A DNA stretch of 61,290 bases from Gammaproteobacteria bacterium (GCA_030432115.1 JAUIHY010000001.1:1-61290), one strand, 5' to 3'. Shown: positions 197-56,363, counted from the stretch's first letter. Program-made: numbers and translations. The notes: generated by a model from the sequence alone, not told the origin.

Positions 197-224
197 AAAC
201 AATCAAACCACCGTTTTACTGCCA
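197..224 (-). promoter_or_regulatory. Putative ECF-sigma promoter, copy B: TGGCAG-N17-TGTTT
   Basis: Matches four other copies with identical spacing; TGTT starts 36 nt before ATG 165. Confidence 0.65.
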
Positions 225-252
225 AATTATTCAATATTGTTTTTGCATCAAT

Positions 253-280
253 TGTCAGTAAACCGACTGACTGACTGTTA
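253..280 (+). promoter_or_regulatory. Putative ECF-sigma promoter, copy A: TGTCAG-N17-TGTTA
   Basis: Same motif and spacing; TGTT starts 26 nt before ATG 302. Confidence 0.7.
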
Positions 281-301: not shown

Positions 302-1726
302 ATGAACATAAAAATCAAGGTCATCATCATGGTATTTGGACTCAGTCAGTTGTTTTCATGTGGTCAAAGTAACCGCCTGTCAAACTGGTTGGAAAATGAA
401 AAGAAACTGTCACCCAAAGATGCCGAAATCATGACGCAATGGTTGCGCGCCAATCAACTCAAAGCCGAGGATTTTGAGGTATCGCCCAAAGGCTTGGCGA
501 AAAGCAATGCCGTTAAGGTGATTGATAAACAAGTGCATGCCATTCGGGCCAAAGGTGTCAGTGATTTAACAGGCTTATCTGGTTTAAGTCAGTTAACCGA
601 TTTGGAATTGAATCACGTCAAAAGCAGTGATTTGAATGCCTGTCCTGCTCAACTTCACTATCTACGACTTTCTGGTAAGAGTTTAACCTCACTGAGCGGC
701 ACCGCGTCTTGTCAGCATTTACGAAGGGTTAAAATCGTTCACAGTGGCATCCAATCGATTGCGCCTTTATTTTCTTTACCTGAGTTATCAGAGGTCACGG
801 CCAGTTACAATCAGCTGCATGAGGTTGAAATCAGTCAAAGCCTTGCAAAACTTCAGCATTTAGACCTCAGTAAAAATGCCATCAATTCATTTTCACTGAC
901 TGCTCCACTTGCCCAACTACAGCGCTTGGATTTGAGAAGCAATCAAATAACCATGCTCAACTTGGGTCAGCACACGCCTAAATTAAACAAACTGTTTTTG
1001 AAAGACAATCAAATCAAAAATACACAACAAATCAACGTTATCAATAGCTTGAGCTATATTGAATTAAAACAAAACCCACTGAACGATACGGCATCACTGG
1101 CATCATGGCCCAATTTACAATCTATTGATGTGGATGATTCGCTTAAACTGGCATCTGAATTAGCCGATAAAAGAAGAACTTATCCCCAATCAGCTGAAGC
1201 ATTGCAAATGGCAGAAGCCAGACATTTGAAAGCCAAGTACTTGGAAGGCGTCAGGTTTGTTGAAAAAAAACCACATGCTTTCAGTGGCAGGGCTTATCAC
1301 CTCAGCAGGAAGCTTAAACAAATGTTTTCCCTGACGCCTGACCGCACAGAAGTCAGTGGCGAAGTCACCATCAAAGAACTCAATGGTGGTTTTATGCTGA
1401 CCTTGGCTGATACCGACAACGTCCTTTATTACGGGCGGAAAGTCACCATCAAGGCCGCAGTATCGGTAGAACAAGGCCCCATCAGCATTTACAGTCCGAT
1501 TGAAGAAGATTTCTGGCAAATGGCGGCTTTATTTGTCGACACCCCTGTCAAAGAAAGGCCCAAAGAAGCCAACGATTTGATTTTGAAAGGTTATCTCATA
1601 ACCACGGTCAAACCGGGTGAAACGGTCAATAAACAGTTCAATTTAAGCCCCTTGGCTGGAGAGTTTAATTTGTTGATCAATGCCGATGAAGGCAGCGCCC
1701 AAAACATTAAGTTGTCGATTAAATAA
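302..1726 (+). CDS. Leucine-rich-repeat lipoprotein
   Basis: Lipobox-like LFSC at residue 20; LxxLxLxxNxI repeats (LQHLDLSKNAI, LQRLDLRSNQI, LNKLFLKDNQI); RBS GAGG. Confidence 0.8.
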   Translation: MNIKIKVIIMVFGLSQLFSCGQSNRLSNWLENEKKLSPKDAEIMTQWLRANQLKAEDFEVSPKGLAKSNAVKVIDKQVHAIRAKGVSDLTGLSGLSQLTDLELNHVKSSDLNACPAQLHYLRLSGKSLTSLSGTASCQHLRRVKIVHSGIQSIAPLFSLPELSEVTASYNQLHEVEISQSLAKLQHLDLSKNAINSFSLTAPLAQLQRLDLRSNQITMLNLGQHTPKLNKLFLKDNQIKNTQQINVINSLSYIELKQNPLNDTASLASWPNLQSIDVDDSLKLASELADKRRTYPQSAEALQMAEARHLKAKYLEGVRFVEKKPHAFSGRAYHLSRKLKQMFSLTPDRTEVSGEVTIKELNGGFMLTLADTDNVLYYGRKVTIKAAVSVEQGPISIYSPIEEDFWQMAALFVDTPVKERPKEANDLILKGYLITTVKPGETVNKQFNLSPLAGEFNLLINADEGSAQNIKLSIK

Positions 1727-2115
1727 TGAGCGTCTTGGTTTGTGCATTTATTGAATATTTCTCAGACCATCGTTGGCAACTGTTCCAACCTGAACACTTG
1801 ACCCAAAAATCACCGGCTTATAATTTCGCACCAGAGTCTTGGGGCAAATACAATTTCAACATTTACTACCAGCAGTCAGGTGAAAAAGGATTGCCCGATG
1901 ACCTGAGTATTGGACTCAAACAAGTCATTAAAACTCTGTTGAATCAATACAATGACGATGCCTTGAATCGGCCTTCTTGGATGTCATTGGATGAATTATT
2001 GGCGTTCTTTGCATCTGATGTGGAAGGTCAATTTGCGCATTTTGATTTGGATTACTTAAATCAACTCCAAGAGACATTAAATGCCGACATCCGAGTGCTG
2101 TTTTGGGCCGAATGA
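1726..2115 (+). CDS. Small acidic hypothetical protein
   Basis: TAATG coupling to the LRR gene; motifs GLPDDLS, SWMSLDELL, RVLFW. Confidence 0.7.
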   Translation: MSVLVCAFIEYFSDHRWQLFQPEHLTQKSPAYNFAPESWGKYNFNIYYQQSGEKGLPDDLSIGLKQVIKTLLNQYNDDALNRPSWMSLDELLAFFASDVEGQFAHFDLDYLNQLQETLNADIRVLFWAE

Positions 2116-2246: not shown

Positions 2247-3809
2247 TTATTCGATTGACTCAAATCCATTAAAAAAGATCAAATCATCAGAACAGGCATC
2301 ACCAATGCCGTCCTGATTATTGTCCTCTTGTAATGGATCGAAATCATTGGGACAAACATCACACTGAGAACCCACATAATCTCCATCGGGGTCATCACCA
2401 AAACATTTGGCCTCATATGCGCCGATGTCACATGAATTTCCATCAAAAACATTGCTGTCACTGTCCAATGGTCGAGGCATGCCACGCTGATCAAAATCAA
2501 GCGGAACATCAGCCACATTGCCACCAAAGTTAATCTGATAACTGCAACCATCTGGATCACCACCGTCAGCTTCTAGCCCTTCACTGGTGATGGGGTGAAC
2601 TGGATGTAAGCCACCCAATGATGTTAAAGGGCCAAGTTTTGGAATGACTGAGCTGGTGTAGTTGGATTCACCAGTTATGTTGGTCAAGGGACAGTTGTCA
2701 TCATTCCCAACCATCACCCACCCCAAGGATTCGATACCTATGGTTCCGCCTTGGGTGTCATCACAGTTTCTTCCATTGGGGTAACAAAGCATACCTGGAG
2801 GGCAGGGTAAAAAATTGCCATGGATGATGGAATTTTTTGCAGTCACTACTGTTAAATCATTGATGTAAATGCCACCGCCAGTACCACCATTGCCATCATA
2901 GTCGGCTCTATTTTGAGTGATGGTGGCGTTTTCTAACCGCAAGGAGGGTGTTTGTGCATATATCCCTCCCCCATCATGATTGGCTTTGTTCTGACTGATG
3001 GTGCTGTTGATTATATGCAAACTGGTGTTATGTTGATTGGTGTAAATCCCACCACCACTACCGTTTCCATTGGGCAGAGGCCCCAGTGCCTTATTGTTAT
3101 CTATCAATGAGTCTCTGACGGTCAGCTGCCCCAATTGTAACCATACGCCACCGCCTTGCTGATTGTATGAATTGGTGTTTTCTGTGATTCTTGACTGATT
3201 CAAGGTCACATGCGATTCATCATTCCCGCCGCTGCCGAAGATCCTGAGGCCAATGTGATCACCATCACGAATTTCACAACGATTACAAATTAATTTACCA
3301 TCAAACACCGCCAAACCAGCTGCAGAGCTGTGTGGAATGATGGTGATGTCATTCAAAGTGGCTGTTTCTACACTGTTGACATAAAGACCATTAACGTAAG
3401 AACCTGATACGGTATTGGGGCGAAACTCCAAATTCTCAATCGTGGCTCGACTGCCTACATTAATCAACCCACTTTCAATGAATAAGTCACCCTCGATGAC
3501 CGCCCTTCCAGCACCTGTACCTCTAACCGTCATGTTCGTTGTGATCCAAACCCCTCCGCTTGCCAAGACAGGGTAGCTCTCGTTTACAAGGTATGGAATT
3601 TGAACCGTATGTGGACCATTCGGTGTGTAATTAGCCGACTCAATGGCAGCCCTCAATGTACATTGCCCATTTCCTAAGCCGGTTTCACAGACCCCATCCC
3701 CAGGCACTGGATCACTCAAGTCATCACCGTTGTAATTAACGGTAAAAAAAGCCGCAATCGAACAATTCATGTTCAAAAGCAATAACAAGAATAAATATTT
3801 TTTATTCAT
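2247..3809 (-). CDS. CSLREA-type secreted beta-helix protein with choice-of-anchor Q region, thrombospondin type-3 repeat and DLIFFNGFE tail
   Basis: Signal peptide; CTLRAAI; GGGI(Y/W) repeats; DQRGMPR...CDIGAYE; DPDGDYVGSQCDVCP...DGIGDAC. Start reassigned to ATG 3809 after GAGGTGA. Confidence 0.85.
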   Translation of the reverse strand: MNKKYLFLLLLLNMNCSIAAFFTVNYNGDDLSDPVPGDGVCETGLGNGQCTLRAAIESANYTPNGPHTVQIPYLVNESYPVLASGGVWITTNMTVRGTGAGRAVIEGDLFIESGLINVGSRATIENLEFRPNTVSGSYVNGLYVNSVETATLNDITIIPHSSAAGLAVFDGKLICNRCEIRDGDHIGLRIFGSGGNDESHVTLNQSRITENTNSYNQQGGGVWLQLGQLTVRDSLIDNNKALGPLPNGNGSGGGIYTNQHNTSLHIINSTISQNKANHDGGGIYAQTPSLRLENATITQNRADYDGNGGTGGGIYINDLTVVTAKNSIIHGNFLPCPPGMLCYPNGRNCDDTQGGTIGIESLGWVMVGNDDNCPLTNITGESNYTSSVIPKLGPLTSLGGLHPVHPITSEGLEADGGDPDGCSYQINFGGNVADVPLDFDQRGMPRPLDSDSNVFDGNSCDIGAYEAKCFGDDPDGDYVGSQCDVCPNDFDPLQEDNNQDGIGDACSDDLIFFNGFESIE

Positions 3810-3843: not shown

Positions 3844-3871
3844 AAACAGTTAAGTGCTTGATTGACTGACA
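3844..3871 (-). promoter_or_regulatory. Putative ECF-sigma promoter, copy C: TGTCAG-N17-TGTTT
   Basis: Same motif and spacing; TGTT starts 39 nt before ATG 3809. Confidence 0.7.
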
Positions 3872-3956: not shown

Positions 3957-4295
3957 TCAACGTGGCCCAATAACACCTGATGCACCACCTGTGAAGGGAG
4001 TTGTTAAGCCTTGCTCTTGCATCAATTGAGGTGATAATTTACAGGAATTAGGGCTGCCAAAACGTCCAGGCTTGAAGCTCCAAACCACACAGGCATTATT
4101 AGCCTCACAGGCTTTTAAGCATTGTGCAGCATCGGCCACTGAGCCTTTTGCAGGTTGTGCTTCATTGGGTAGGTAATACTGACTGTGATCAGCATCTGCC
4201 GGCATGCTATAAATCGTGTCTTTTTCCATGGCCAGTGCGGTCATTGATGCAGATACCAGAGCAAGTGTCATGATGGTGTTTTTAAATGTTTTCAT
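3957..4295 (-). CDS. Secreted PAN/Apple-domain protein
   Basis: Signal peptide; CxxxC-x5-C-x2-WSF...CxL pattern (QCLKACEANNACVVWSF...SCKL); RBS AAGGA. Confidence 0.75.
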   Translation of the reverse strand: MKTFKNTIMTLALVSASMTALAMEKDTIYSMPADADHSQYYLPNEAQPAKGSVADAAQCLKACEANNACVVWSFKPGRFGSPNSCKLSPQLMQEQGLTTPFTGGASGVIGPR

Positions 4296-4340: not shown

Positions 4341-6422
4341 TTACTGACAAACAATGCCATCAAAGCCGTCATTGAAGATGTAATCGCTTACTGCCAGTTG
4401 GTTGATGGTGATGACTTCAGCTCGATCCACGTCACCACCTTGGGTCTCAGTAGTGCCCACCACTTCATTCAAATAAATACCGGGCACCATGGCTGCATGA
4501 TTGATGGCAACGGTGAATGGAACAACTGATTGCTGAAAACTAAGTTCATCTGTGGGTGTGAATGAACAGCTACTGTCTGGATTGTCACAACTTAATCCCA
4601 CCTCATCACCCCAGCCATTCACCGCTTCGGCTTCGCAGTCCAATGAACAGGTCAAAGCTGAAGTTGTGGTGATTTTGGTATTGCGACAACTGACCGAAAA
4701 GTCTGGCTGTCCTGCCAAAGTAAAACCGGGTGAAAACTCAGAAGTCCGCCCACCACCTTCGGTGGCTGTGGTGACGATCACATCGCCTTCACTGATGGGC
4801 GCAGCAGCATTCAATGTTCTGGCCACAGGATTTCCTGCCAACCATTGTGATTCGGTAAAAGTGGTGCTGGCCAACCAGGTTTGGCCTTCTTGACCATCAC
4901 TGTCGGCAGCATAGACATCAACCGTGATTGGGTAGTCACTGGCACCATTGTGGCTGTCGATTTGGTAATTCAAATTGATGCGATTACCGCTGGGGTCGTG
5001 TTGAGCGGAGTTGATATCGGGAAAATTTTGCAAACGGTTGGCGCCAGAGTCGAAATCATCAGGATCATTGGGCGTGAAGCGGTCTGCCTCTAAGTCAATG
5101 CCTTCGTTTTCGTTGTTATAAATACTGTTGTGCCGAATTTCTATGATGTTGTTGCTGAAACTACTGACAACCACCCCACAACCTCTGGTGGGACCACACT
5201 GATTATAGGCAATGGTGTTGCCTTGGCCAGGCAATCCAATTCGGGTATCTATGGCTATCCCGCCTGAGTAAATACCGCCTCGCATATTTGGCAAAGGACT
5301 GACGCCATCTTCTGCCACACCAATCAGGTTACTCACAATATCCACCCGCCGCAATGGTGAGCCAGAATCTGTTGATAATGATAGCCCAATACCTGAGTTG
5401 CCTGATATGACATTTTTTTCTACAACGATGTCTCGGCCTCTTTGTAGGATGATGCCTTCGCGGTTGGGCAATGCATTCATGCCGCTGATGTCAGTGCCTA
5501 TCAGGTTGTTGGTGATTTTTAAGTTAAGTTCTTGGTCTGGTGATATATAAACACCACTGATGTTATTTCCAGAAATCAAATTACCCAAACCCGGTAGATC
5601 AGCACCGATGATGACATTCGACTTAGCTCGGGTAGATAAAATGATGCCAGTTGTATCATTGGGCACAGCCAAATCGCCTTCAGGATTGGTGCCAATTTTA
5701 TTTCCAAAAACCCCCACAGCACCATTTTCAAGGTAGTAATCAAAATGAATCCCAAATTGTAGATTACCCGATATAACATTGCCCTCTGTGGGCATATAGC
5801 CACCGATGACATTGTTTTCACCGCCATTGGTGGTAACAATGATGCCGTATTTATTCGGCGCACTGGCTTGACCATAGGGCATGTTCAGACCCAACCAAGA
5901 GCTGGTGATTTTGTTATTAAAACCATGGTCATCATAGCTACCGGTAAAGTAGCCCATCCTGGCACCGGCGTTGTACCAATTGGTCACTGACAGGGCTTTG
6001 ATGTGGCTGTTTTCCAATAGGGTGAGTCCATCCAAAGTGTCATAAGGCCCCGCATTAGAATCACCGGCCAATGCCCCATCTACCACAATGGTAGGATTAC
6101 CTGCCGTGGATGTCCCTGCCGTTGAACCATCAATGGTGATGTCAATCAAACTGGGAAGTTCTGAAGTCGGTTGAATCATCCAATAGAAAAAAGCACTGGC
6201 ACCTGTTCCGCCTTCAAAATAATTTTCATTCAATGCATCGGCTGGGATGTTGAATGTGATGGTGTCAGATTCGTTGTTATTCAGTCCTTGGTTGATTGCG
6301 CCACGCAAAGTACAAGTACTGGCGTTACACACATCACCATCTGCACTTGATGTCACGACAATGGTTGCAGCCTGACCTGTTACACTGACGACCAGCATCA
6401 GAATCATTAAAATGGTTTTCAT
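4341..6422 (-). CDS. CSLREA-type secreted parallel beta-helix protein with DYIFNDGFD tail
   Basis: Signal peptide; CTLRGAI; repeated GNxISGN/NxIGTD units; TPNDPDD...GANRLQNFP; TSEFS. Confidence 0.85.
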   Translation of the reverse strand: MKTILMILMLVVSVTGQAATIVVTSSADGDVCNASTCTLRGAINQGLNNNESDTITFNIPADALNENYFEGGTGASAFFYWMIQPTSELPSLIDITIDGSTAGTSTAGNPTIVVDGALAGDSNAGPYDTLDGLTLLENSHIKALSVTNWYNAGARMGYFTGSYDDHGFNNKITSSWLGLNMPYGQASAPNKYGIIVTTNGGENNVIGGYMPTEGNVISGNLQFGIHFDYYLENGAVGVFGNKIGTNPEGDLAVPNDTTGIILSTRAKSNVIIGADLPGLGNLISGNNISGVYISPDQELNLKITNNLIGTDISGMNALPNREGIILQRGRDIVVEKNVISGNSGIGLSLSTDSGSPLRRVDIVSNLIGVAEDGVSPLPNMRGGIYSGGIAIDTRIGLPGQGNTIAYNQCGPTRGCGVVVSSFSNNIIEIRHNSIYNNENEGIDLEADRFTPNDPDDFDSGANRLQNFPDINSAQHDPSGNRINLNYQIDSHNGASDYPITVDVYAADSDGQEGQTWLASTTFTESQWLAGNPVARTLNAAAPISEGDVIVTTATEGGGRTSEFSPGFTLAGQPDFSVSCRNTKITTTSALTCSLDCEAEAVNGWGDEVGLSCDNPDSSCSFTPTDELSFQQSVVPFTVAINHAAMVPGIYLNEVVGTTETQGGDVDRAEVITINQLAVSDYIFNDGFDGIVCQ

Positions 6423-6455: not shown

Positions 6456-6483
6456 AAACAAAGTACGGCGTGATTTACTGACA
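6456..6483 (-). promoter_or_regulatory. Putative ECF-sigma promoter, copy D: TGTCAG-N17-TGTTT
   Basis: Same motif and spacing; TGTT starts 38 nt before ATG 6422. Confidence 0.7.
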
Positions 6484-9852: not shown

Positions 9853-9958
9853 ACCCAAACCACCGCATTCAGTGATGCAATTGGCATTTTATTCAATGTT
9901 AATTGCATTTTTTTTCACCTCATGAACAATGGTAGCAAAGTAACATTTAGAGGTGATT

Positions 9959-34705: not shown

Positions 34706-36370
34706 CTACTGATACAATTCTGGTAAACCCTTGTTGGCTTTGTTGGCCCTCTTCTGGCGCTTGAAACCACCTTGTTTGGCCAGCTGAAACCAGCTGATAC
34801 TGTGGTCATAATCGGCGCCTTGATACAAACTATTTTGCAGGGTTTCTATCGCCTGTAACGTGGCTTGATCTTCAATTTGATTGGCAATTTGGCTTAAGTT
34901 GGTGACTTGTTGTTGATGCTCCTGGTTCCACCAGGCAAGCAATGTTTGTTGAATACGGCTTGGGGTGGCTTCTTTCAAAGCCCTCAGATTGGGGTCAAAA
35001 CGATTAACATTGGCTTGTTTTGTTGCTGGAACCATTTGAGCCGTGCGCATGCGACGCAGCATAAAAATGGTGGTCAATACCCACAAACTGGCAAAAATCA
35101 AAGCCAAGGGTCGCCAAATATCTGCTGCCTTTGAATCCACTGGATTTATGTTGGTTGCTGGGTCTGAAATCACCAATTGGCTGGCAGGTATTTCTTTTTG
35201 AATTTGAGCCGTAGGCTGCGGTGTGTTTTGGTTGGCCACATCTGCACGGGCCACGTCAAATGTGGTGCTGGCCAATGTGGCCGTGCGGGTTTGCTCCAAC
35301 TGGGTGTCATACCATTCCAATGTGTATTCTGGAATCTCCAGCTGCCCAGCTTGACTCGGAATCACCGCGTATTTGATGGTTTTGGTGGCTATCAATCGCT
35401 CACCATCGGTGCGCGTCATGGTGTCGGTTTTGTCCTGATAAATTTTGGCACCCTCAAACTGGTCCATATTAATTTCTGGCAATTGCGTTTCAGACAATCC
35501 CGTAGCGACCAAGTTGATGGTGCGTGTGATGGGCTCACCCACCTTATATTCACCTTGCGACCAAGTTTGGGTGACATTCAGATCACTCGCTGGAATCCAC
35601 GGCTTATTAATAAAAGCTTGGGGAATGGGCTTGATGTCCAAAGCCAACATTTCAGATACTTGACGCACCGGTCTACCACGCTGAAACATGCTGTAGCTGG
35701 AGCGGCGACTGTTGTCAGTGACTTCTCCTTCAAACACCAAAGGATTTAATTCTAAAGGACCTGAATTTTCAGCGTAAATGGCGTATTTTCGTTCCAAAAC
35801 CTGGTATGTTTTGCCGTCTCTTTGTGTGCTGTAGCTGGCACCTTTGTTGATTTGTTGAACAATCACCCCATCAGCACTGGGATCAGTTAATCCACCATTT
35901 TTCAAATTGACTGCATACAACAAGCGCACCGTTAAGATGATTTCTTCTTGAACAAAAGCACTGGTTTTGCTGGGTATTAATTCAATAAATATATCACCTT
36001 GGGCTTTGGCATTGGGATCCGGTTTATTCACCTCAATGCGCAGCGCTTGTGTCGATTCACCAGCCACTTCAATTGGTGGAATGATGTGCTTACCCAAAGA
36101 TTTAGGCACCAATAAGACTTGCCAAGTGGTGCTGGAAGAGGTTTCACCATTGATGATTTGTGTTGAACTGGATCTGCCCGTACTTCCGACATGAAACACC
36201 GCATCAAGCACCGTGAAGTCGGGTTGTTCATTGGTGTTTTTATCCAAGGTCACTTCCATCGTGATGGATTCACCCAAAAACAAACTACTGCGATCTACTT
36301 TGGCTGTTAATTTGGCAGCTGCCGAGCCACACAACAACAGCAACATCATCAAAAAACTGTATTTATTCAT
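34706..36370 (-). CDS. BatD family protein
   Basis: Signal peptide, QIING, GEPITR, C-terminal TM; last gene of the MoxR cluster. Confidence 0.85.
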   Translation of the reverse strand: MNKYSFLMMLLLLCGSAAAKLTAKVDRSSLFLGESITMEVTLDKNTNEQPDFTVLDAVFHVGSTGRSSSTQIINGETSSSTTWQVLLVPKSLGKHIIPPIEVAGESTQALRIEVNKPDPNAKAQGDIFIELIPSKTSAFVQEEIILTVRLLYAVNLKNGGLTDPSADGVIVQQINKGASYSTQRDGKTYQVLERKYAIYAENSGPLELNPLVFEGEVTDNSRRSSYSMFQRGRPVRQVSEMLALDIKPIPQAFINKPWIPASDLNVTQTWSQGEYKVGEPITRTINLVATGLSETQLPEINMDQFEGAKIYQDKTDTMTRTDGERLIATKTIKYAVIPSQAGQLEIPEYTLEWYDTQLEQTRTATLASTTFDVARADVANQNTPQPTAQIQKEIPASQLVISDPATNINPVDSKAADIWRPLALIFASLWVLTTIFMLRRMRTAQMVPATKQANVNRFDPNLRALKEATPSRIQQTLLAWWNQEHQQQVTNLSQIANQIEDQATLQAIETLQNSLYQGADYDHSISWFQLAKQGGFKRQKRANKANKGLPELYQ

Positions 36371-38196: not shown

Positions 38197-39161
38197 CAGT
38201 CCAACCTCCTGATCCACATCGAAGCCATCAAGGCCAACAAGGCAGCCAGTAATGGCCAATAAAACAGTTCATCGGTGGGTCTGAAAAATTGTTCATCTTC
38301 AGCCAAGGGCTCTAATTCATCCAACATCTGATAAATCTGCTCTAATTCCTTTGAATTCCTGGCTCGAAAATATTGACCTTCGGTGATTTTAGCGATGCGC
38401 TTCAACGTGGCTTCATCCAAGTCCGCTGAGGGGTTAATCAACCTTTGACCAAAGAAGCCATTGCTCACCAATTCATCGGCACCCACGCCGATGGTGTATA
38501 TTTTCAAGCCTTCTTCTCGTGCCAATTCTGCGGCTTTTAAGGGCTCAATTGCCCCGGCGGTGTTTTGCCCATCAGTCAAGACGATCAAAATGCGGTTGTT
38601 GTTTTCCACCTCTCTGGCTTTTTTTACCGCCAAGCCTATTGAATCACCAATGGCTGTGGACTTACCCGCCAAACCAATGGCCGCCTCATACAACAAAGTT
38701 TGTACAGTTTTCCTGTCAAAAGTCAGCGGGGTTTGTAAATAGGCGTTTTCACCAAACAGAATCAATCCAATACGATCACCGGTGCGGCGTTCAATGAATT
38801 CGCCAGCCACTTTTTTTACTGCGGTCAAACGATCAACAGGCTGGCCACCAATCTGCATGTCTTTTTGTTCCATTGAGCCTGATATATCGATGGCCAACAT
38901 CAAATCACGTCCTTCGATTGGCAAAGGAATCGGCTCACCCACCCACTGGGGGCGACTGACTGCCAACAACAAAAACAGCCACAACAACAAATTCAACCAG
39001 CGCCAAGGGTGCTTGTTTTTTTGTTGCTCGCTGGTGAACATGTTTTTCAAAAAAGGCACATCTAAGGTGGTGATGCTGGCTTGCTTTACCCTAGGCAACA
39101 GTCGAATCAAAAACGGCAATGGCAACAAAAATAACAACAAAGGCCAAGCAAAACTATACAT
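38196..39161 (-). CDS. vWA domain protein (BatA-like)
   Basis: RPQW, DISGSM, PLTFD, TAIGD, LTDG. Confidence 0.9.
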   Translation of the reverse strand: MYSFAWPLLLFLLPLPFLIRLLPRVKQASITTLDVPFLKNMFTSEQQKNKHPWRWLNLLLWLFLLLAVSRPQWVGEPIPLPIEGRDLMLAIDISGSMEQKDMQIGGQPVDRLTAVKKVAGEFIERRTGDRIGLILFGENAYLQTPLTFDRKTVQTLLYEAAIGLAGKSTAIGDSIGLAVKKAREVENNNRILIVLTDGQNTAGAIEPLKAAELAREEGLKIYTIGVGADELVSNGFFGQRLINPSADLDEATLKRIAKITEGQYFRARNSKELEQIYQMLDELEPLAEDEQFFRPTDELFYWPLLAALLALMASMWIRRLD

Positions 39162-39714
39162 TTTTGGCCTCCTGAAAATTTATTTTGGCCAATTGCTTTG
39201 GTGTCATCATCACCACTTTTTTGATGTGCTGTCCAAGCAGATCTATCAATGCCTTGCTGTCAAATTCCACCTCAGGCAAATAAACCCCTTGGGTCAGCAA
39301 TGCCTGATAAGGTGCGAATGGTTGGTCTTTGTGGTAACGGTTCAAATGCGTTATCCACTCAGCACCGCTGGTCGTCACGGCCTGGTCTTGGTGTTGCTGA
39401 AATTTTTCAAATCGGCGCAATAACATGGATAAGTCTGACAACAATTGACGCTGGTCTTGGTGTGACTGATAAGCAAAATCAATCGCCCCCAATTGTTTTT
39501 CAATGGCCAGCAAGCGTTGTTGCCTCTTGCGCCTTTGCAACCAGCGGTATGTCAAATAAACAAACAGCAGTAACAACGCGCCAGCCAGCAGCCACCAACC
39601 AGGTGCCAATGGCCAAAACCCGGGTTCTGCCGGCAAATGTAACCCCCTCAGTGGCAATTCTTGTGCACCCTGAGTCATCGGTCCTTGGTTTATGGGTACG
39701 GTCTGTTGCATCAT
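39154..39714 (-). CDS. DUF4381 family protein
   Basis: LRGLHLP...WPLAPGWW. Confidence 0.85.
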   Translation of the reverse strand: MMQQTVPINQGPMTQGAQELPLRGLHLPAEPGFWPLAPGWWLLAGALLLLFVYLTYRWLQRRKRQQRLLAIEKQLGAIDFAYQSHQDQRQLLSDLSMLLRRFEKFQQHQDQAVTTSGAEWITHLNRYHKDQPFAPYQALLTQGVYLPEVEFDSKALIDLLGQHIKKVVMMTPKQLAKINFQEAKNV

Positions 39715-40685
39715 GCTTTGGCTCCCAACCAGTGGTTGAATGCCAGGGCTGGATTGTTCAATCCATTGCGCATTTTATTCACCCATTGGTCATTGGTTTG
39801 AACCGGTATGATGGGAACACCAGCTTTTATGACCTCATTCTTTAACCTGCTGATGTGGTTTTGTTGTTGTTCAGACAGCAAGGTTAAGGTGCTGTCTTTG
39901 CGGGTGTCCATCACCCGCACCTGACGCTGGCCTTGGGATTGTGTCCGAATACCATACCTCGCTGCCAACGGGGCCTCCACTTCAAATGGGTCGGCCACCT
40001 TGATGGCCAACACATCATTGTGTTTACGCAATTGCAACAATTGTCGTTTGGCCTCTGGTCCCATATTCAAAAAGTCACTGACCACAAAGACCAAACTGCC
40101 TGGACGAATCACAGTACGCAACTGCTTTAATGCTTGGTCCAAATGTGACTGTTGTTCTTGTTCATGTCGCACCGATGTTTTCAACACATGAGACATCATG
40201 GCCATCATGCCACGCTTTCCAGGTGTGGCTTTGACTACATGTGTGCCGTGAACACCGTAGGTCAAAACACCAATGCGATCGCCATTTTGAATCGAAGACC
40301 AGCCCAAAAAAGCCGCAATTTCACTGGCCAAAACCATTTTGAACTTGTTCTGGGTGCCAAAAAACATCGAAGCATTGCTGTCTAAAATCACATAAGTTGG
40401 TCGCTCGCGTTCTTCTTGAAACAACTTGGTGTGTGCCTCCCCGGTACGGGCCGTCACGCGCCAGTCCATATTTCTGATGTCATCGCCAGCTTGGTAAATA
40501 CGCGACTCCAAATAATCCATACCTCGCCCACGAAAACGTGAATCATGCAAACCTGAGATGGCAGATGAGGCTTTCTTCATTCTGGCCATACCCAGTTGTC
40601 GCGCATGGTGACGGGTGTTGACCATGGTTTTGGCCATCACATCAATGGCTGGGTTTTGTTTGCTTGCTACGCTCATTGCACTCAA
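39711..40685 (-). CDS. DUF58 family protein
   Basis: GRGMDY, YQAGDDIRNMDWRVTAR, EERER, SDF. Confidence 0.9.
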   Translation of the reverse strand: MSAMSVASKQNPAIDVMAKTMVNTRHHARQLGMARMKKASSAISGLHDSRFRGRGMDYLESRIYQAGDDIRNMDWRVTARTGEAHTKLFQEERERPTYVILDSNASMFFGTQNKFKMVLASEIAAFLGWSSIQNGDRIGVLTYGVHGTHVVKATPGKRGMMAMMSHVLKTSVRHEQEQQSHLDQALKQLRTVIRPGSLVFVVSDFLNMGPEAKRQLLQLRKHNDVLAIKVADPFEVEAPLAARYGIRTQSQGQRQVRVMDTRKDSTLTLLSEQQQNHISRLKNEVIKAGVPIIPVQTNDQWVNKMRNGLNNPALAFNHWLGAKA

Positions 40686-41665
40686 GGCAAAGGCACAATC
40701 GCCAACAACTGATCGATCACTTCATCGGCCGTGTGGCCTTCTGCTTCGGCTTCAAAAGACAAAATAATGCGGTGACGCAAGACATCATGAATCACAGCAT
40801 GGATGTCTTCGGGAAGCATGTGATCGCGCCCTTGTAAAAAGGCATGCGCACGGGCGCAACGATCCAGTGCAATGGTGGCACGGGGCGAACCACCAAAATC
40901 AATTTGTTCTGCCAATTGGGCATCGTATTTGGCTGGGTTTCGTGTGGCCAGTATCAACTCAACCAAATATTTTTCCAGATTTTCTGCCACAAACAAGTTC
41001 AAAATGTGTTTTTGAGCGGCAAAAATTTGTTCTTGAGTCAACAGTTCTTCATGTTTCACCTTGTGGTCCATTTCTGCCAAATCTTTTTTCTGTGCCAGTT
41101 TTAAAATGTCCAGTTCAGTGTCGGCTTCTGGGTAATCGATGGTCACATGCATCAAAAAACGGTCCAATTGCGCTTCAGGCAAAGGGTAAGTGCCTTCTTG
41201 TTCAATCGGGTTTTGGGTCGCCATCACCAAAAACAGTTCTGGTAAGTTGTATGTGGTTTTGCCCACGGTGATTTGTTGTTCACCCATGGCTTCTAACAAA
41301 GCCGACTGCACCTTGGCAGGGGCACGGTTGACCTCATCAGCCAACACCAAGTTATGAAACAAAGGACCTTTTTGAAACTCAAAAGTGGCCGATTGGGCAT
41401 GATATACATCGGTGCCTGTCAAATCGGCTGGCAACAAATCAGGGGTGAATTGGATGCGGTGAAAATTGCCTTCTATGCATTCTGACAGCACTTTAATCGC
41501 TGTGGTTTTGGCCAAGCCGGGCGCACCTTCAACCAATAAATGACCATGTGATAACAAGGCCATCAACAAGCGATCAACCAGCTTTTGTTGACCAAGTATT
41601 TGTGTGCCTATGGCTTGTCTGATGTTTTGAAAGGCTTGTGTTAATTGTTCTGTGCTTTGTTCCAT
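40682..41665 (-). CDS. moxR: MoxR family AAA+ ATPase
   Basis: EGAPGLAKT, RIQFTPDLLPAD, DEVNRAPAKVQSALLE, ATQNPIEQEGTYPLPEAQLDRF. Confidence 0.93.
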   Translation of the reverse strand: MEQSTEQLTQAFQNIRQAIGTQILGQQKLVDRLLMALLSHGHLLVEGAPGLAKTTAIKVLSECIEGNFHRIQFTPDLLPADLTGTDVYHAQSATFEFQKGPLFHNLVLADEVNRAPAKVQSALLEAMGEQQITVGKTTYNLPELFLVMATQNPIEQEGTYPLPEAQLDRFLMHVTIDYPEADTELDILKLAQKKDLAEMDHKVKHEELLTQEQIFAAQKHILNLFVAENLEKYLVELILATRNPAKYDAQLAEQIDFGGSPRATIALDRCARAHAFLQGRDHMLPEDIHAVIHDVLRHRIILSFEAEAEGHTADEVIDQLLAIVPLP

Positions 41666-51807: not shown

Positions 51808-53256
51808 TTAACCTCCAAAACCATCAGACCAAAGCAAATCATGATCCTCAGGAACTTCGATGGCACCAATGTCACACATCGAGTTGTTGTCACCATCGCC
51901 ATCCATCGGGCGAGGGTTGTTTTGTTGGTCTTTTTCTAAATCTCCACCACCGTAGAACAAACACGCCGACAAAGGAACCCCATCAATTGCCGAAGAGTCA
52001 GTAGTTGGTGTCAGAGCAGGAAATCCAGCGTCATCAAATGATATCCCTGACAGCAAAGGGTCTTCACGGCGATCTGTGGTCGGGCTGAAAGGACATGAAG
52101 TGTCATCAATGATGGTCCTTGCTGTGTTCAAGATGGATGTGCTGCCACTACAATTTGATCCACCTTGAGGGTAGGCCAAAATACTGGCGCCAATGCTGCC
52201 CAATGTGCCACCATATGCATAAATATTACCACCCAATGAAGCGGTGTTATGTGCCAAGGTTGAATGATAAATATATAACCAAGCATTTTGCCCATTGCCT
52301 CCAGAGCTTGAAAGCGCACCGCCACGATCTGCGACATTATGAGCCATCACACTGTTATAAACCCATGCTTGCGCATCAAGCGCCACATACAAGGCACCAC
52401 CACTGCTGCTGGCCGTGTTGCCAATGAAAGCATTGCGATTAAAAATATAGTTTTGCACTGCAGCAGTGGCAAATATGGCCATACCACCCCCGCTTTCCTC
52501 ACTTAAATTGTGATAAAACTGGTTATGACTGATTGAGAAGTTATCAGAACCCGTGTCTGCCACCAATATTGCCCCACCTGTGCCTGCTGATACATTGTTT
52601 TGAAAACGGTTGTTTAATAAAGTGAATTCACCTGCAGTGCCTTCGCTTAAATAAATCGCACCGCCGTCTTCATTGGCTTGGTTACCTACAAATATACTGT
52701 CTCTGATGGTGATTTTTCCTGTGGCATTAACGCCTTCTATTGATATAGCACCACCAAATGACCCCTCATTATTTTCAAACACAGACTCACTGATAAATAC
52801 CTGACTCGTTAAGCCATTTGTGCCATTATTGTGGACGTAGATCGCACCACCTGAACCATTGGCTGTGTCACCGTTAGTCAAATGTAATCCAATGAATTCA
52901 AATATATGACCACTGCTTTGAATGGGATAAACCTCAAAAATGCGGTGATTATTTGCTGCTTGAATAAGCACAGGTTCATCGGCTCCAAACGGCGCCCTGA
53001 TGGCGATTGAGCTGGTCACATTAATCTGTGACGTCAGTTGAATGGAGCCATTGACATCAATAATAACAATGTCCACAGCATTACCCGCTGTACAGCCATC
53101 AACTGCTACATCGGTGTTCGCTGCTTTGACCGCTTCTCGCAAGTCACAACCACCGTCATTGCTGTTGTTATTGTCTGTGACTTTGTTCACCGTGATGATG
53201 CCACTTTGAGCGACATGGAGCCACATTGTCAAAAGTAAAATTGCGATAAATTTCAT
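51808..53256 (-). CDS. CSLREA-domain secreted protein with Pmp-like GGA(I/L)/FxxN repeats, choice-of-anchor Q region and DLLWSDGF tail
   Basis: Signal peptide; CDLREAV; FENN..GGAI, FVGN..GGAI, FQNN..GGAI; DQQNNPR...CDIGAIE. Confidence 0.88.
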   Translation of the reverse strand: MKFIAILLLTMWLHVAQSGIITVNKVTDNNNSNDGGCDLREAVKAANTDVAVDGCTAGNAVDIVIIDVNGSIQLTSQINVTSSIAIRAPFGADEPVLIQAANNHRIFEVYPIQSSGHIFEFIGLHLTNGDTANGSGGAIYVHNNGTNGLTSQVFISESVFENNEGSFGGAISIEGVNATGKITIRDSIFVGNQANEDGGAIYLSEGTAGEFTLLNNRFQNNVSAGTGGAILVADTGSDNFSISHNQFYHNLSEESGGGMAIFATAAVQNYIFNRNAFIGNTASSSGGALYVALDAQAWVYNSVMAHNVADRGGALSSSGGNGQNAWLYIYHSTLAHNTASLGGNIYAYGGTLGSIGASILAYPQGGSNCSGSTSILNTARTIIDDTSCPFSPTTDRREDPLLSGISFDDAGFPALTPTTDSSAIDGVPLSACLFYGGGDLEKDQQNNPRPMDGDGDNNSMCDIGAIEVPEDHDLLWSDGFGG

Positions 53257-53281
53257 GATTCACCTCTTTCAAAAACACTGT

Positions 53282-53309
53282 TAACAAGTAATCAGGATTT
53301 TTACTGACA
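53282..53309 (-). promoter_or_regulatory. Putative ECF-sigma promoter, copy E: TGTCAG-N17-TGTTA
   Basis: Same motif and spacing; TGTT starts 30 nt before ATG 53256; directly divergent from the sigma gene. Confidence 0.72.
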
Positions 53310-53379
53310 TTTATTTTGAAAAAATTGAGAAAAAGTGACATTTTTGATACCCTCAAGTCATCGTTTATGGACGACAAAT

Positions 53380-53913
53380 ATGGAATATCAACAATTGACC
53401 CAAGCACTGAACCAAAAACCCAACGACCTGTCCGATCACCAGAAACAGGACTTGACTTATGTTTACTCGCATTTAAAAAAAATTGCGCGATCTCAACGAT
53501 TTAAGGTCAAAGGCACGGGTCTTAACACCACCGCATTGGTTAATGAAGCATGGATCAAAAGCCAAGGCAGCGCCAAAAGTTTCAATGACCGCAACCACTT
53601 TTTCGCTTATTGTGCATTGGCCATGCGTCATATCCTGCTTAATGAAGCCAAAAAACACCGCCTGATTACCTATGTAGACAACGCCGCTGACTTCGAACAA
53701 CCCTTGATTAAAGAAGCCGATGCCTTATTGGATTTAGAACGGCATTTAGAAAAACTCAAAAACTTTTCCCCCCGGTTAGAACAAATATTCACCTATAAAT
53801 TTTTTGGTGACATGGAGTTTGATGCCATTGCTGAGGTTTTGAATGTCAGCGAACGGACTGTTTTCCGTGATTGGAAAAAAGCCAAAGCCATGTTGGCCGC
53901 AGCAATGCAATGA
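53380..53913 (+). CDS. ECF sigma factor, TIGR02999 / kinase-associated (ECF43-like)
   Basis: VYSHLKKIA, LNTTALVNEAW, DRNHFFA..ALAMRHIL, IAEVLNVSERTVFRDW. Confidence 0.9.
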   Translation: MEYQQLTQALNQKPNDLSDHQKQDLTYVYSHLKKIARSQRFKVKGTGLNTTALVNEAWIKSQGSAKSFNDRNHFFAYCALAMRHILLNEAKKHRLITYVDNAADFEQPLIKEADALLDLERHLEKLKNFSPRLEQIFTYKFFGDMEFDAIAEVLNVSERTVFRDWKKAKAMLAAAMQ

Positions 53914-56363
53914 AAGAAGACATAGAAAAAATTTGGGCACAAATCGATGCCGACTTTGAAGCCGATGATGCGCAAGATGTCACGGAGTATTTAATCAAAA
54001 AAGGCTGGAACAAAGGTGTTGAAAACGGTGTGGCAGACCTGGCTGAAAGCATTGTAGAACAGGCATTTATAGAGCAAGACACATTAAAAGTCAGCCCCTC
54101 TGAAAAGTACCGCATCATCAAACAATTAGATTTTGGTGGCCAAAGCGACATTTATTTGGCCGAACGTTCAGACGGTATTTACCACAAAACCGTCATCATT
54201 AAATTCATTTCTCAGTTGCATCACCACGCAGGTGCAAAACAACAGTTTTTACAAGAAATGCAAATGTTGGCCGACCTCAACCACCCCGGTGTGGTCGGCA
54301 TTTTAGACGGAGGGCTGACAGACCAAGGTCAGCCATGGCTGGTGTTGGATTACATTGAAGGGGAACACATTGATGACTATTGCCTCAAGCAAGCTGCCAG
54401 CAATCAAGACATCATCAAACTCATCATTGACCTTTGCGATGCCTTGCGTTTTGTCCATCGCCGTCAGGTACTGCATTTGGACATCAAACCCAGCAATGTT
54501 TTGATCAAGCGCATCAACCAAGTACCGCACCCCGTTTTGATTGATTTTGGTATCGCCAAGAAGCAACAAGAACAAGATGATGCGGCCTATGGCACACCTG
54601 GATATGCAGCACCAGAGACTTTAAAATCTGAGAGCCCACCGGACATCAGGGCCGATGTTTTTGCACTGGGTATGTTGCTGGCACAACTGATTTGTCGCAA
54701 TGATGTCAGTAACGTGGGCTTGCTGTCCTCTCAAGATCGCCAAGAATTATTAAGCAAACACAAAGCCAGTTCTGATTTGCAGGCCATCATCAGCCAAGCC
54801 ACTCAAAAAGATCGCAACTACCGATACCAAGACACTGAAGCTTTCAGAAATGATTTAAATCGATACCTCTTGGGCATGCCCTTGAGCATGGACTCTGGCC
54901 TTCCTCAAATGATATGGAAAGGTGTAAAGCGCCACAAAATGCTGGTCACTGCCGCTTCTGTTGCCATGATCTTTGCCATTTACTTTGCGATACAGTACAC
55001 CCAAGAAATTCGTCAGCTACAAAGAATCACACTGCAAGAAAAACAACAAAGTGATGAATTGATGAATTATATGCTGGATGAATTATTTGAAGAATTAGCC
55101 AAAATTGGTCGTGTTGATGTACTGAAATCTGTGACAGAAAAAAGCGTCAACCATTTGGCATCTCAAGACCCCAGGGCCATGACAGATTTAGATCATTTAC
55201 AAACAGCCAAAGCCTATATGAACGCCGGTCAAGTTTTTGATGCCTTAGAACTTTCTCAACAAGGCAAGCAAGCCTACCTCAAAGCCAAAGAAAACCTCAA
55301 ACCCTTGGATTCTTTGCCATATGCTCAAGTGAATAAAGACAATTTACTGGGTGAAATCAACATCGGCCTGAGTCAAGTGTTGAGCTCTGAAGGCCAAGAG
55401 GAGGCCACAGAAAAAATATTAACTGAAACCATCAGAATCACCGAAGGCTTACAAGAGTTAGGCATGTTAAAAAACCCGTTGACCCTTTGGGAAGCTTACT
55501 TACAACTGGGTTGGCACCATTTAGAGTATGGAAAAGACAGAACAGCAAAGGACAACATTGATGCCGCATTGATGCTGAGCCAAGCGATGCTTGAGGACAA
55601 AAATCAAAACCGTGCACAATGGTTGTATGCGCATTCACATGGTTTGCAGCTCAAGGCTTGGTATGAAATTGATTTTGGTACGCTTGATACCGGTATCCAA
55701 GACCTCACCAATGCAGTCTCATTTGCCCAGGAAGCCATCTCATCAGATCCGGAAGACATAAAAAAGCTCAACAACCGCCGCATATTATTAAATCAGCTGG
55801 GCTATTTTTTATTGGAAAAACAAGCCTTTGATGTGGCTTTGCCCTACGCAGAAGAAGCAGTCAAACAAGGACAACAATTACAGCTTAAAGTACCCAAAAA
55901 CTTAGAGTTTAAAAGAGAATTGGCCGTCTCTTATTCCACTCTGGGAGAAGTGCTGCAACAATTGGGCAACAACGAATCTGCTTTGAACTACTACCAAGCC
56001 AGCTTGAACATTTCCGAACTATTGGCCACTCAAGATAAAAACAATTATTCAACCATCAATGATTTCGCTATTGATATTTTATTGGTTGCCAACCTCAATC
56101 ACCAGTTGGGCTACCAAAAAGAAGCCCTGAATTTATGGCACAAAGCCGCTGATTTAATGCGCCCCATTCAAGAAAAGGAACCCAACAACAAATACTATAA
56201 CCACACGCTTTTCGTTGCTTTGGTGCAACTTAAAAAATACCTAGAGGCCAAAGTCCTTTACCAAACACTGGTAGATAATGGCATGGACGACCAACAAATC
56301 AAAGACCTGCTGGTTCAGCACCAGTTAAGCGCTTGGGAGAACAACAAAAAGGGCCCTGAATGA
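53910..56363 (+). CDS. Membrane Ser/Thr protein kinase with extracytoplasmic TPR domain
   Basis: LADLNHPGVV, HLDIKPSN, DFG, GTPGYAAPE, DVFALG; one TM segment; TPR helices; ATGA-coupled to the sigma gene. Confidence 0.92.
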   Translation: MKEDIEKIWAQIDADFEADDAQDVTEYLIKKGWNKGVENGVADLAESIVEQAFIEQDTLKVSPSEKYRIIKQLDFGGQSDIYLAERSDGIYHKTVIIKFISQLHHHAGAKQQFLQEMQMLADLNHPGVVGILDGGLTDQGQPWLVLDYIEGEHIDDYCLKQAASNQDIIKLIIDLCDALRFVHRRQVLHLDIKPSNVLIKRINQVPHPVLIDFGIAKKQQEQDDAAYGTPGYAAPETLKSESPPDIRADVFALGMLLAQLICRNDVSNVGLLSSQDRQELLSKHKASSDLQAIISQATQKDRNYRYQDTEAFRNDLNRYLLGMPLSMDSGLPQMIWKGVKRHKMLVTAASVAMIFAIYFAIQYTQEIRQLQRITLQEKQQSDELMNYMLDELFEELAKIGRVDVLKSVTEKSVNHLASQDPRAMTDLDHLQTAKAYMNAGQVFDALELSQQGKQAYLKAKENLKPLDSLPYAQVNKDNLLGEINIGLSQVLSSEGQEEATEKILTETIRITEGLQELGMLKNPLTLWEAYLQLGWHHLEYGKDRTAKDNIDAALMLSQAMLEDKNQNRAQWLYAHSHGLQLKAWYEIDFGTLDTGIQDLTNAVSFAQEAISSDPEDIKKLNNRRILLNQLGYFLLEKQAFDVALPYAEEAVKQGQQLQLKVPKNLEFKRELAVSYSTLGEVLQQLGNNESALNYYQASLNISELLATQDKNNYSTINDFAIDILLVANLNHQLGYQKEALNLWHKAADLMRPIQEKEPNNKYYNHTLFVALVQLKKYLEAKVLYQTLVDNGMDDQQIKDLLVQHQLSAWENNKKGPE

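What the first reader, a model, noticed from the sequence alone, without database searches (positions are those of the whole stretch)
51808..56363. Candidate kinase-activated ECF sigma regulon controlling a dispersed family of CSLREA surface proteins
Seen: five upstream regions share one bipartite motif with exactly 17 nt between hexamer and TGTT. On the transcribed strand they are 253-280(+) TGTCAG TAAACCGACTGACTGAC TGTTA; 224-197(-) TGGCAG TAAAACGGTGGTTTGAT TGTTT; 3871-3844(-) TGTCAG TCAATCAAGCACTTAAC TGTTT; 6483-6456(-) TGTCAG TAAATCACGCCGTACTT TGTTT; 53309-53282(-) TGTCAG TAAAAATCCTGATTACT TGTTA. The consensus is TGTCAGTAAA-N12-YTGTTW, always in sense orientation with TGTT 26-39 nt before the ATG. 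All four CSLREA-type genes have it, across about 53 kb, and I did not see it before other genes I inspected by eye. One copy is back-to-back with a TIGR02999/ECF43-like sigma plus TM kinase pair. Known: ECF43 sigmas (Xanthomonas citri EcfK/PknS, Vibrio parahaemolyticus EcfP/PknT) lack anti-sigmas and are activated by a neighbouring Ser/Thr kinase. Inference: this motif is the -35/-10 promoter of this sigma or a paralog, and an extracytoplasmic signal sensed by the TPR domain switches on a set of beta-helix surface proteins. I do not know of this regulon being described.
Basis: partly seen in the sequence, partly recalled or inferred. Interest (0 to 1): 0.92.

Follow-up and report, generated by a model that had tools for sequence, protein, structure and literature searches.

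The report
Kinase-gated sigma's surface-protein promoter
In a marine bacterium, a short two-part DNA signal sits just before a small set of genes for predicted exported proteins and travels with one alternative sigma factor and its partner kinase across related genomes, so it is likely the promoter that this sigma factor reads once the kinase likely switches it on.

Summary
In detail: five TGKCAG-N17-TGTT sites (0.69 expected), each 22-35 nt before a gene. The genome is probably Marinicella. The sigma has the ECF43 phospho-threonine motif; the kinase's best structural match is X. citri PknS. The motif tracks this sigma: at 14 ortholog loci it precedes 34 of 35 CSLREA or lipoprotein genes and 0 of 55 other neighbours. 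A motif-only scan found a further genus, with the hit 103 bp from an ortholog. Corrections: the 'dispersed' genes are one cluster beside the sigma in 10 of 14 relatives, split here; the set includes two unrelated lipoproteins; most CSLREA or tailed genes lack the motif; TAAA is not conserved. Paralogous sigmas have variant motifs that change with one helix residue (held-out 8 of 10, p=0.065). Against: a csgG-like gene keeps the motif without this sigma, and published mutagenesis of another sigma gives Phe->G, not A. No expression data. The scan found similar ECF43 regulons before on other DNA. Verdict: a well-supported, untested new member of a known kind.

The parts
53380..53913 (+). ECF43-type sigma factor, 177 aa; NTTAL motif at residues 49-53 (T51 = likely phospho-site); region-4 helix SERTVFRDW at 157-165 (F162)
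   Evidence: PF07638 E 1.7e-20; TIGR02999 125.3 bits; start fixed by orthologs; residue numbers
53910..56363 (+). Hanks-type Ser/Thr kinase, 817 aa: N-terminal extension, kinase domain, one hydrophobic helix (344-362), predicted periplasmic TPR-like helical stack (about 400-811)
   Evidence: Pfam; hydropathy and motifs; model pLDDT 79; best Foldseek hit X. citri PknS 9EED E 2.7e-9, TPR part like LGN/Pins
53282..53309 (-). Promoter motif copy, back-to-back with the sigma gene (-35 box 53309-53303, -10 box 53287-53282)
   Evidence: conserved before the divergent gene of orthologs
51808..53256 (-). CSLREA beta-helix protein, 482 aa, signal peptide, tail DLLWSDGFGG; resembles Acinetobacter RbtA
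   Evidence: model pLDDT 86, pTM 0.88; Foldseek 9CDU E 1.8e-8; profile search E 5.6e-14
6456..6483 (-). Promoter motif copy before the 693-aa CSLREA gene
   Evidence: present before 9 of 9 orthologs scored at sigma loci
4341..6422 (-). CSLREA beta-helix protein, 693 aa, tailed; found in 12 of 14 genus genomes with the sigma, 0 of 10 without
3957..4295 (-). Secreted PAN-domain protein, 112 aa; no own motif, 45 nt behind the 693-aa gene, likely co-transcribed
   Evidence: PF14295 E 5.2e-6, just under cut-off; gap; 0 of 8 orthologs with motif
3844..3871 (-). Promoter motif copy before the 520-aa CSLREA gene
2247..3809 (-). CSLREA beta-helix / choice-of-anchor Q protein, 520 aa, tailed
253..280 (+). 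Promoter motif copy before the LRR lipoprotein gene, back-to-back (28 bp) with the copy at 224-197
   Evidence: also before divergent LRR orthologs in G002, G022, G018, G011, G008, G014
302..1726 (+). LRR lipoprotein, 474 aa (lipobox LFSC); in 13 of 14 genus genomes with the sigma, 1 of 10 without
1726..2115 (+). 129-aa protein without a family, start overlaps the LRR stop; likely co-transcribed
197..224 (-). Promoter motif copy before the CSLREA gene at the contig edge
1..165 (-). First 55 codons of a CSLREA gene cut by the contig end
   Evidence: TIGR04214 31.6 bits

Best explanation
TGKCAGT-N15-YTGTTW lies 22-36 nt before seven genes of this genome and is likely the -35/-10 promoter of the window's ECF43 sigma, which its co-encoded membrane kinase would switch on by phosphorylating Thr51 so that it likely transcribes a small set of predicted exported proteins (five CSLREA beta-helix proteins, an LRR lipoprotein and a 140-aa lipoprotein, plus two genes likely read through). 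Shown: the motif, its fixed spacing and orientation, its conservation with a random spacer, its linkage and co-occurrence with this sigma, the absence of the motif before sigma and kinase (no autoregulation). Inferred from the family: TPR domain outside the membrane senses a ligand, the kinase autophosphorylates and phosphorylates the TT motif that replaces the acidic DAED patch, the sigma binds core polymerase. Inferred from co-variation: helix residue F162 helps set base 5 of the -35 box. Predicted start of transcription about 9 nt after the last T of TGTT. The likely output is remodelling of the cell surface with binding proteins in answer to a contact or envelope cue; the cue is not known.
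For: Five sites against 0.69 expected. A matrix built from 30 sites of other genomes ranks 6 of 1217 G000 gene starts at 18 bits or more: four window genes, the C42 lipoprotein and the C140 CSLREA gene; antisense 0, spacer shifted by -1 or -2 gives 0, 0 of 500 shuffled matrices reach 6. The last 12 spacer bases of the seven sites are 26% alike and the LRR and lipoprotein targets share no similarity with the CSLREA ones. At 14 ortholog loci, 34 of 35 CSLREA or lipoprotein genes have it and 0 of 55 sigma, kinase and housekeeping neighbours. The motif stays at the divergent position whether the gene there is a CSLREA gene or the unrelated lipoprotein. LRR genes carry it where they lead a unit and not where they are internal. 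Genes that moved away from the sigma keep it (lipoprotein in G000 and G018, left cluster in G000 and G018, 693-aa gene in G023, C140 homolog in G004). Targets co-occur with the sigma: 12/14 vs 0/10, 11/14 vs 0/10, 13/14 vs 1/10. Whole-genome motif+SD scan: 8 of 12 genus genomes with the sigma, 0 of 7 without (p=0.013); its hit in G164, another genus, lies 103 bp from a 61%-identical sigma, before lipoprotein and 693-aa orthologs. All 9 tabulated sigmas with F/Y at the helix position sit by TGNCAG, and they are not one clade (AU p=2.8e-5); R/K goes with C in 14 of 15, D/E with G in 7 of 8. Of the G000 ECF43-like sigmas whose helix is visible only this one has F. ECF41 and ECF42 promoters begin alike, TGTCACA and TGTCGAT (PMC7826278 supplement).
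Against: No expression, TSS or binding data. A csgG-like gene keeps a 16-bit copy in 4 of 4 scorable genomes without the ortholog as well as 9 of 10 rows with it. G013 and G009 carry cluster genes with the motif but no ortholog was found (contig edge; 97% and 66% complete). In published mutagenesis of another ECF, Phe or Tyr at the equivalent position prefers G (0.86), not A (0.03) (PMC7776599 Dataset S3). The held-out test of the residue-base rule gave 8 of 10, p=0.065, and only 21 of 160 loci yielded a site; independent pairs on supported branches number only 2. The 11.5-bit cut-off was set after seeing the scores (32 of 35 at 14.5; best negative 10.4), and the 30 training sites were picked with a matrix made from the window sites. 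Genomes are kin, so the p-values overstate. One G000 paralog (C144) is cut before its helix. The predicted ECF43 motif in print is GTC / CAG, which fits only the -35 half.
Confidence: 0.8

Rival explanations
1. The motif is an ECF promoter but is read mainly or also by another sigma: a paralog missing or cut in this 90%-complete assembly, or several ECF43 paralogs that share TGNCAG.
For: csgG-like site conserved without the ortholog; TGTCAG-N17-CGTA before a CSLREA gene in G015, which lacks the ortholog; G000 holds at least 8 other ECF43-like matches, one cut before the helix and one with Ile there; the C140 site has TGTA as -10.
Against: Cluster and motif sit beside this sigma in unrelated arrangements and are not found in complete genomes without it; other paralogs have their own variant beside them; the C140 homolog in G004 has GGTT like other cluster sites.
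Confidence: 0.12
2. The motif is the operator of an ordinary transcription factor that is inherited with the cluster, and the genes use sigma-70 promoters.
For: The csgG-like site overlaps TATA-rich sequence; a weak 9/12 sigma-70 match overlaps the 53.3-kb site.
Against: Non-palindromic, strand-specific, fixed 17-nt gap and fixed distance to the start; no such factor among the genes identified at the 14 loci; the motif changes with the sigma's helix; sigma-70 matches in the region do not exceed shuffles (5 vs 3.4 +/- 1.7).
Confidence: 0.05
3. The upstream regions are alike by descent (gene duplication) or by chance.
For: Four of the five window genes are distant paralogs; the bare pattern occurs 45 times in the genome.
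Against: Spacer identity 26%, proteins at most 25-29% alike over long stretches (40% over the 55 residues of the edge gene), two targets unrelated; 0 of 500 shuffled matrices match.
Confidence: 0.02

Closest known systems
EcfK / PknS of Xanthomonas citri (ECF43; PMC13147305, passages read)
   Same: Sigma with TT motif next to a TM Hanks kinase with an N-terminal extension and periplasmic TPRs, of like length (833 vs 817 aa); PknS is the best structural match of the kinase; no anti-sigma.
   Different: Output is a T6SS against amoebae there, a set of beta-helix, LRR and lipoprotein genes here; no promoter consensus appeared in the passages read; the second phospho-site (T106) was not mapped here.
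EcfP / PknT of Vibrio parahaemolyticus (ECF43; PMC8999054, passages read)
   Same: Intrinsically inactive sigma whose STTA second Thr is phosphorylated; the window has NTTA.
   Different: Polymyxin-resistance regulon; cue known there, unknown here.
ECF41 and ECF42 promoters (PMC7826278 supplement part 13)
   Same: -35 boxes begin TGTC (TGTCACA, TGTCGAT) and -10 is CGTC, close to TGKCAGT and YGTT.
   Different: Those sigmas have C-terminal regulatory extensions and no kinase; the window sigma is 177 aa with none.
General ECF specificity code (Todor et al., PMC7776599, sections 5-7 and Dataset S3)
   Same: The residue equivalent to RpoE Arg171 reads -31; Arg/Lys give C (0.88, 0.98), as in 14 of 15 rows here; small local regulons near the sigma are common.
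   Different: Phe/Tyr gave G in their ECF32 scaffold but go with A in 9 of 9 ECF43 rows here; their motifs came from autoregulatory upstream regions, and this sigma does not autoregulate.
Rhombotarget A (RbtA) of Acinetobacter baumannii, PDB 9CDU/9CDV
   Same: Best structural and profile match of the 482-aa target; described as a cell-surface protein (PMC12643943, passages).
   Different: 17-19% identity, TM about 0.5; different C-terminal end; function not transferable.

Membership tests
ECF43 sigma / Ser-Thr kinase pair | Matches Pfam Sigma70_ECF (PF07638) rather than separate sigma2 and sigma4 models | tested here: met
   E 1.7e-20, 74 bits vs cut-off 21.1; no sigma2 model hit; criterion from PMC7826278 supplement. 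TIGR02999 is 125.3 bits, 0.85 under its cut-off.
ECF43 sigma / Ser-Thr kinase pair | Kinase encoded at position +1, one TM helix, extracytoplasmic TPRs | tested here: met
   ATG overlaps sigma stop; TM 344-362; TPR families and helical stack; same pair at 14 ortholog loci
ECF43 sigma / Ser-Thr kinase pair | DAED patch of region 2.2 replaced by (Q/S)TTA with phospho-acceptor Thr | tested here: met
   NTTAL at 49-53; T50 and T51 invariant in 16 of 16 aligned; criterion from PMC13147305 and PMC8999054
ECF43 sigma / Ser-Thr kinase pair | No anti-sigma gene next to the sigma | tested here: met
   Neighbours are the kinase and a CSLREA or lipoprotein gene
ECF43 sigma / Ser-Thr kinase pair | Kinase catalytic motifs intact | tested here: met
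   K98, HLDIKPSN, DFG, APE present; K98, H189, D191, K193, N196, D212-G214, P235-E236 invariant in 15 of 15
ECF43 sigma / Ser-Thr kinase pair | Direct phosphorylation activates the sigma | not testable with these tools
   Needs kinase assay and T51A / T51E alleles
ECF43 sigma / Ser-Thr kinase pair | Score against the ECF43 group HMM; linker phospho-site equal to EcfK T106 | not tested
ECF43 sigma / Ser-Thr kinase pair | Published predicted promoter: GTC in -35, CAG in -10 | tested here: inconclusive
   -35 TGTCAG contains GTC; -10 here is YTGTTW, not CAG. The printed motif is a prediction for 69 proteins.
ECF-type promoter | Two conserved boxes, fixed spacer, sense orientation, room for a 5' UTR with SD | tested here: met
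ECF-type promoter | Transcription starts downstream of the -10 box and depends on the sigma | not testable with these tools
   Needs TSS mapping and mutants
ECF41 / ECF42 | C-terminal SnoaL or TPR extension on the sigma | tested here: not met
   Sigma ends at residue 177 right after region 4
CSLREA domain protein (TIGR04214) | N-terminal CSLREA motif after a signal peptide | tested here: met
   Over the cut-off in the six-frame search for three window genes (31.6, 29.4, 28.4 bits); the 520-aa gene scores 20.3, under the cut-off

The most novel reading that the evidence does not exclude
Marinicella and related Xanthomonadales run banks of up to about 20 ECF43-kinase pairs as insulated receptor-to-promoter channels: each TPR kinase activates its own sigma, a readable one-residue code in the region-4 helix sets that sigma's TG[T/G/A]Cnn-N17-nGT[T/A] promoter, and each channel drives its own exported proteins that share a DxIFxxGFE-like C-terminal tail, an undescribed sorting signal that the peptide-binding TPR groove may itself monitor.
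Probability: 0.3. Interest if true: 0.75.

Novelty: new member of a known kind. Interest (0 to 1): 0.5.

Why it matters
ECF43 sigmas are activated by phosphorylation and, like this one, need not autoregulate, so upstream-motif methods can miss their targets; two members are described in the papers read. This locus gives a concrete promoter, a seven-unit target list and single-base predictions that can be tested in a cultured, harmless marine genus or in an E. coli reporter. The variant motifs beside paralogs suggest that targets of many ECF43 pairs can be read from sequence, and the regulon ties CSLREA beta-helix proteins of unknown role to an inducible surface response.

Tried and rejected
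TAAA extension of the -35 box: not conserved. Regulon of all CSLREA or tailed genes: rejected. csgG-like gene as a member: dropped, since the site does not track the sigma and the gene was not found in G000. C139 ABC-F gene (20.1 bits): not in the top 25 with the cross-genome matrix, taken as chance. Strict-pattern hits in genomes without the ortholog were in coding or unrelated sequence (12 regions). Second rule, acidic helix position 2 -> G at base 6: not supported (p=0.28; 5/8 vs 3/6). Autoregulation: no motif before 14 sigma or 15 kinase genes. RNA: no RNA holder listed; the one run laid gave short contigs over the kinase only and says nothing on expression. Atlas: the 140-aa lipoprotein gave only leads under 0.9, NTF2/DUF4878-like; the LRR protein was not held. 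BLASTP of the sigma against the genome's RpoE-like protein found no alignment, so the helix register was set by eye. No solved ECF43 sigma matched. One search's motif pattern was one base short and was redone. Literature: ten searches found no paper on this motif, on ECF sigmas of Marinicella or on the tail; subscription papers are not covered, and Datasets S1-S2 of PMC7776599 were too large to read and may hold predicted motifs for relatives.


Full report
Observation. They end 22-35 nt before an ATG with a Shine-Dalgarno-like sequence. Four precede CSLREA-type exported proteins, one of them cut by the contig end; the fifth precedes an LRR lipoprotein. The window is contig C187 of a 2.54-Mb, 303-contig assembly, 90% complete. 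The closest named records of the sigma are Marinicella (66-69% identity), so the genome is probably of that genus.

The regulator pair. The sigma starts at 53380 (177 aa), matches PF07638 and, just under cut-off, TIGR02999, and has NTTAL where ECF43 members have the phospho-acceptor (Q/S)TTA (PMC13147305 and PMC8999054, passages); both threonines are invariant in 16 aligned sequences. The kinase start overlaps the sigma stop; it has intact Hanks motifs, one hydrophobic helix and a long helical stack. Its best structural match is X. citri PknS, and the stack resembles peptide-binding TPR superhelices such as LGN. No anti-sigma lies nearby.

Rest of the genome. The bare pattern occurs 45 times, mostly in ORFs. 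Two further upstream sites appeared that were not used for training: before a CSLREA gene on C140 and before a 140-aa lipoprotein on C42. A matrix built from 30 sites of other genomes puts 6 of 1217 SD-bearing G000 starts at 18 bits or more, namely the four complete window genes and these two; the next scores 14.8. Antisense windows and spacer shifts of -1 and -2 give none, and 0 of 500 column-shuffled matrices reach six. Those 30 sites were chosen with a matrix from the window sites, so this is not fully independent. The edge gene is too short to be in that list. The motif is not a mark of the family: 3 of 37 genes with the DxIFxxGFE-like tail have it. The spacers are 26% alike over their last 12 bases and two targets are unrelated to the rest, which rules out shared descent.

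Relatives. Orthologs at 59-81% identity occur in 15 of 40 other genomes. At 14 of these loci (G031, 58-59%, treated apart), 34 of 35 CSLREA or lipoprotein genes carry the motif 25-50 nt upstream and 0 of 55 sigma, kinase, HIT, channel, amidohydrolase and other neighbours do (cut-off 11.5 bits set after seeing the scores; 32 of 35 at 14.5; best negative 10.4). In 10 of the 14, homologs of the window's left-end genes and, in 9, of the C42 lipoprotein lie directly beside the sigma. So the 'dispersed' set is one cluster that this lineage has split by about 47 kb and across contigs, and the moved genes kept the motif. The motif stays at the divergent position whichever gene lies there. LRR genes have it when they lead a unit and not when they follow another member; PAN and the 129-aa gene never have it. 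G031 has TGTCAG-N17-AGTT before an exported protein behind its kinase. The conserved core is TGKCAGT-N15-YDGTTW.

Co-occurrence. Among 24 genus genomes, 14 have the sigma and kinase. The 693-aa gene is in 12 of 14 against 0 of 10, the lipoprotein in 11 of 14 against 0 of 10, the LRR gene in 13 of 14 against 1 of 10. Three of the ten are under 90% complete, and kin are not independent. Of 21 CSLREA genes scored in genomes without the ortholog, 2 have the motif, both on G013 C40, a contig that begins inside the LRR gene; of 22 scored away from the sigma in genomes with it, 4 do, all homologs of cluster genes (40 regions picked from 184 matches; three gave no scorable start). A scan of 251 genomes for motif plus SD matched 8 of 12 genus genomes with the sigma and 0 of 7 without (Fisher p=0.013). 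Of 11 hits outside known clusters that I looked at, one, in G164 of another genus, was a real cluster: 103 bp from a 61%-identical sigma, before lipoprotein and 693-aa orthologs; the other ten showed no cluster gene.

Which sigma. Paralogous ECF43 pairs mostly sit beside a tailed exported gene with their own TG[T/G/A]Cnn-N17-nGT[T/A] variant. Base 5 follows the residue at F162: F/Y with A in 9 of 9 rows, R/K with C in 14 of 15, D/E with G in 7 of 8, Q with C in 0 of 3 (45 rows; 10 Marinicella orthologs and duplicate loci were left out first). F/Y sigmas are not one clade (AU p=2.8e-5, four changes); distant ones in Rudaea and G037 sit by TGTCAG-N17-CGTA. The clustered test (12 of 16, p=1e-4) is partly circular; the held-out test gave 8 of 10, p=0.065, from 21 of 160 loci with a site; only two independent pairs rest on supported branches. 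By eye F162 aligns with the Arg of the genome's RpoE-like TVR helix, the position that Todor et al. showed to read -31 (PMC7776599 section 6); with the first T as -35, base 5 is -31. Their data agree for Arg and Lys (C) but give G for Phe and Tyr (Dataset S3). Among G000's ECF43-like sigmas only the window's shows F; one is cut before the helix.

Against. A csgG-like gene, present in 21 of 24 genus genomes but not found in G000, keeps the motif in 4 of 4 scorable genomes without the ortholog and 9 of 10 rows with it (15 of 22 loci parsed); its whole upstream region is conserved, so it may be a relic, a site for another paralog, or a sign that the motif is not private to this sigma. There is no expression evidence.

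Targets. The 482-aa protein models as a beta-helix (pLDDT 86), closest to Acinetobacter RbtA, called a cell-surface protein (PMC12643943, passages); a CSLREA protein is listed among Acinetobacter T2SS substrates (10.1101/2022.02.01.478765, one passage). With LRR, PAN and lipoprotein members, the set looks like surface binding proteins; this is inference.

Mechanism and novelty. Most likely: cue at the TPR domain, kinase activation, phosphorylation of T51, holoenzyme formation, transcription of seven units from the motif; sigma and kinase are not under their own control. The switch is a known kind. The motif and target set were not found in ten literature searches or in the readable supplements of PMC7776599 (two large datasets unread); PMC7826278's supplement predicts only GTC / CAG for ECF43. 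Papers seen: PMC7826278 passages and supplement part 13; PMC13147305, PMC8999054, PMC12643943 and the InvL preprint as passages; PMC7776599 abstract, passages, sections 5-7, Dataset S3 part 1. Earlier notes of this scan describe similar ECF43 regulons in other genomes, two with residue-base co-variation; none lies on this DNA or its look-alikes. Score 0.5: strong comparative support and directly testable, but a new member of a known kind.

Noticed in passing
G000 genome-wide; window 2247-2290, 4341-4380, 51808-51840: 37 proteins end in a DxIFxxGFE-like tail, also common in relatives; probably a C-terminal sorting signal. No paper matched five search terms.
   Followed up: partly
G000 C136, C165, C70, C301, C227, C40, C220; loci L111-L150: Most other ECF43-kinase pairs lie beside tailed exported genes, often with their own motif variant, e.g. 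TGGCCG-N17-TGTA on C136. Relatives hold up to 24 matches to the sigma.
   Followed up: partly
L311-L332: A 233-aa CsgG-family gene (PF03783) has a very conserved upstream region with the motif in Marinicella with and without this sigma.
   Followed up: yes
window 197-280: Two motif copies back-to-back, 28 bp apart, form a divergent promoter pair; the same arrangement is not universal (in G018 the LRR unit and next CSLREA gene are co-directional).
   Followed up: partly
G020:C248:1-2570 (L359): A second copy of the sigma end and kinase ortholog, with the kinase in two frames.
   Followed up: no
G013:C40 (L130) and G019/G004: Upstream regions of two cluster genes are identical in G013 and G019, suggesting recent exchange or a binning error.
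   Followed up: no
L048, L049: The 50-53% sister clade (longer, 1095-aa kinases; helix SPRTIDR) has TGGCGT-N16-GGTTA close before its 35-37% homolog of the 482-aa gene (by eye).
   Followed up: partly
window 8143-11692: Choice-of-anchor B protein and a VWA protein, both predicted exported, next to the left cluster but without the motif.
   Followed up: no
window 16050-17846 and 34706-41665: A lone MshEN + T2SSE ATPase gene, and a MoxR-DUF58-VWA-BatD operon.
   Followed up: no
G000:C42:1153-1295; L063, L064: The lipoprotein gene in G000 and the csgG-like genes are each divergent from what looks by eye like a chorismate-mutase fusion gene; not tested.
   Followed up: no
L230, L287: In the SEATVLR helix class a TGTCCC-N17-TGTT site lies 40 nt before a gene that looks like the kinase rather than before an exported gene.
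   Followed up: no
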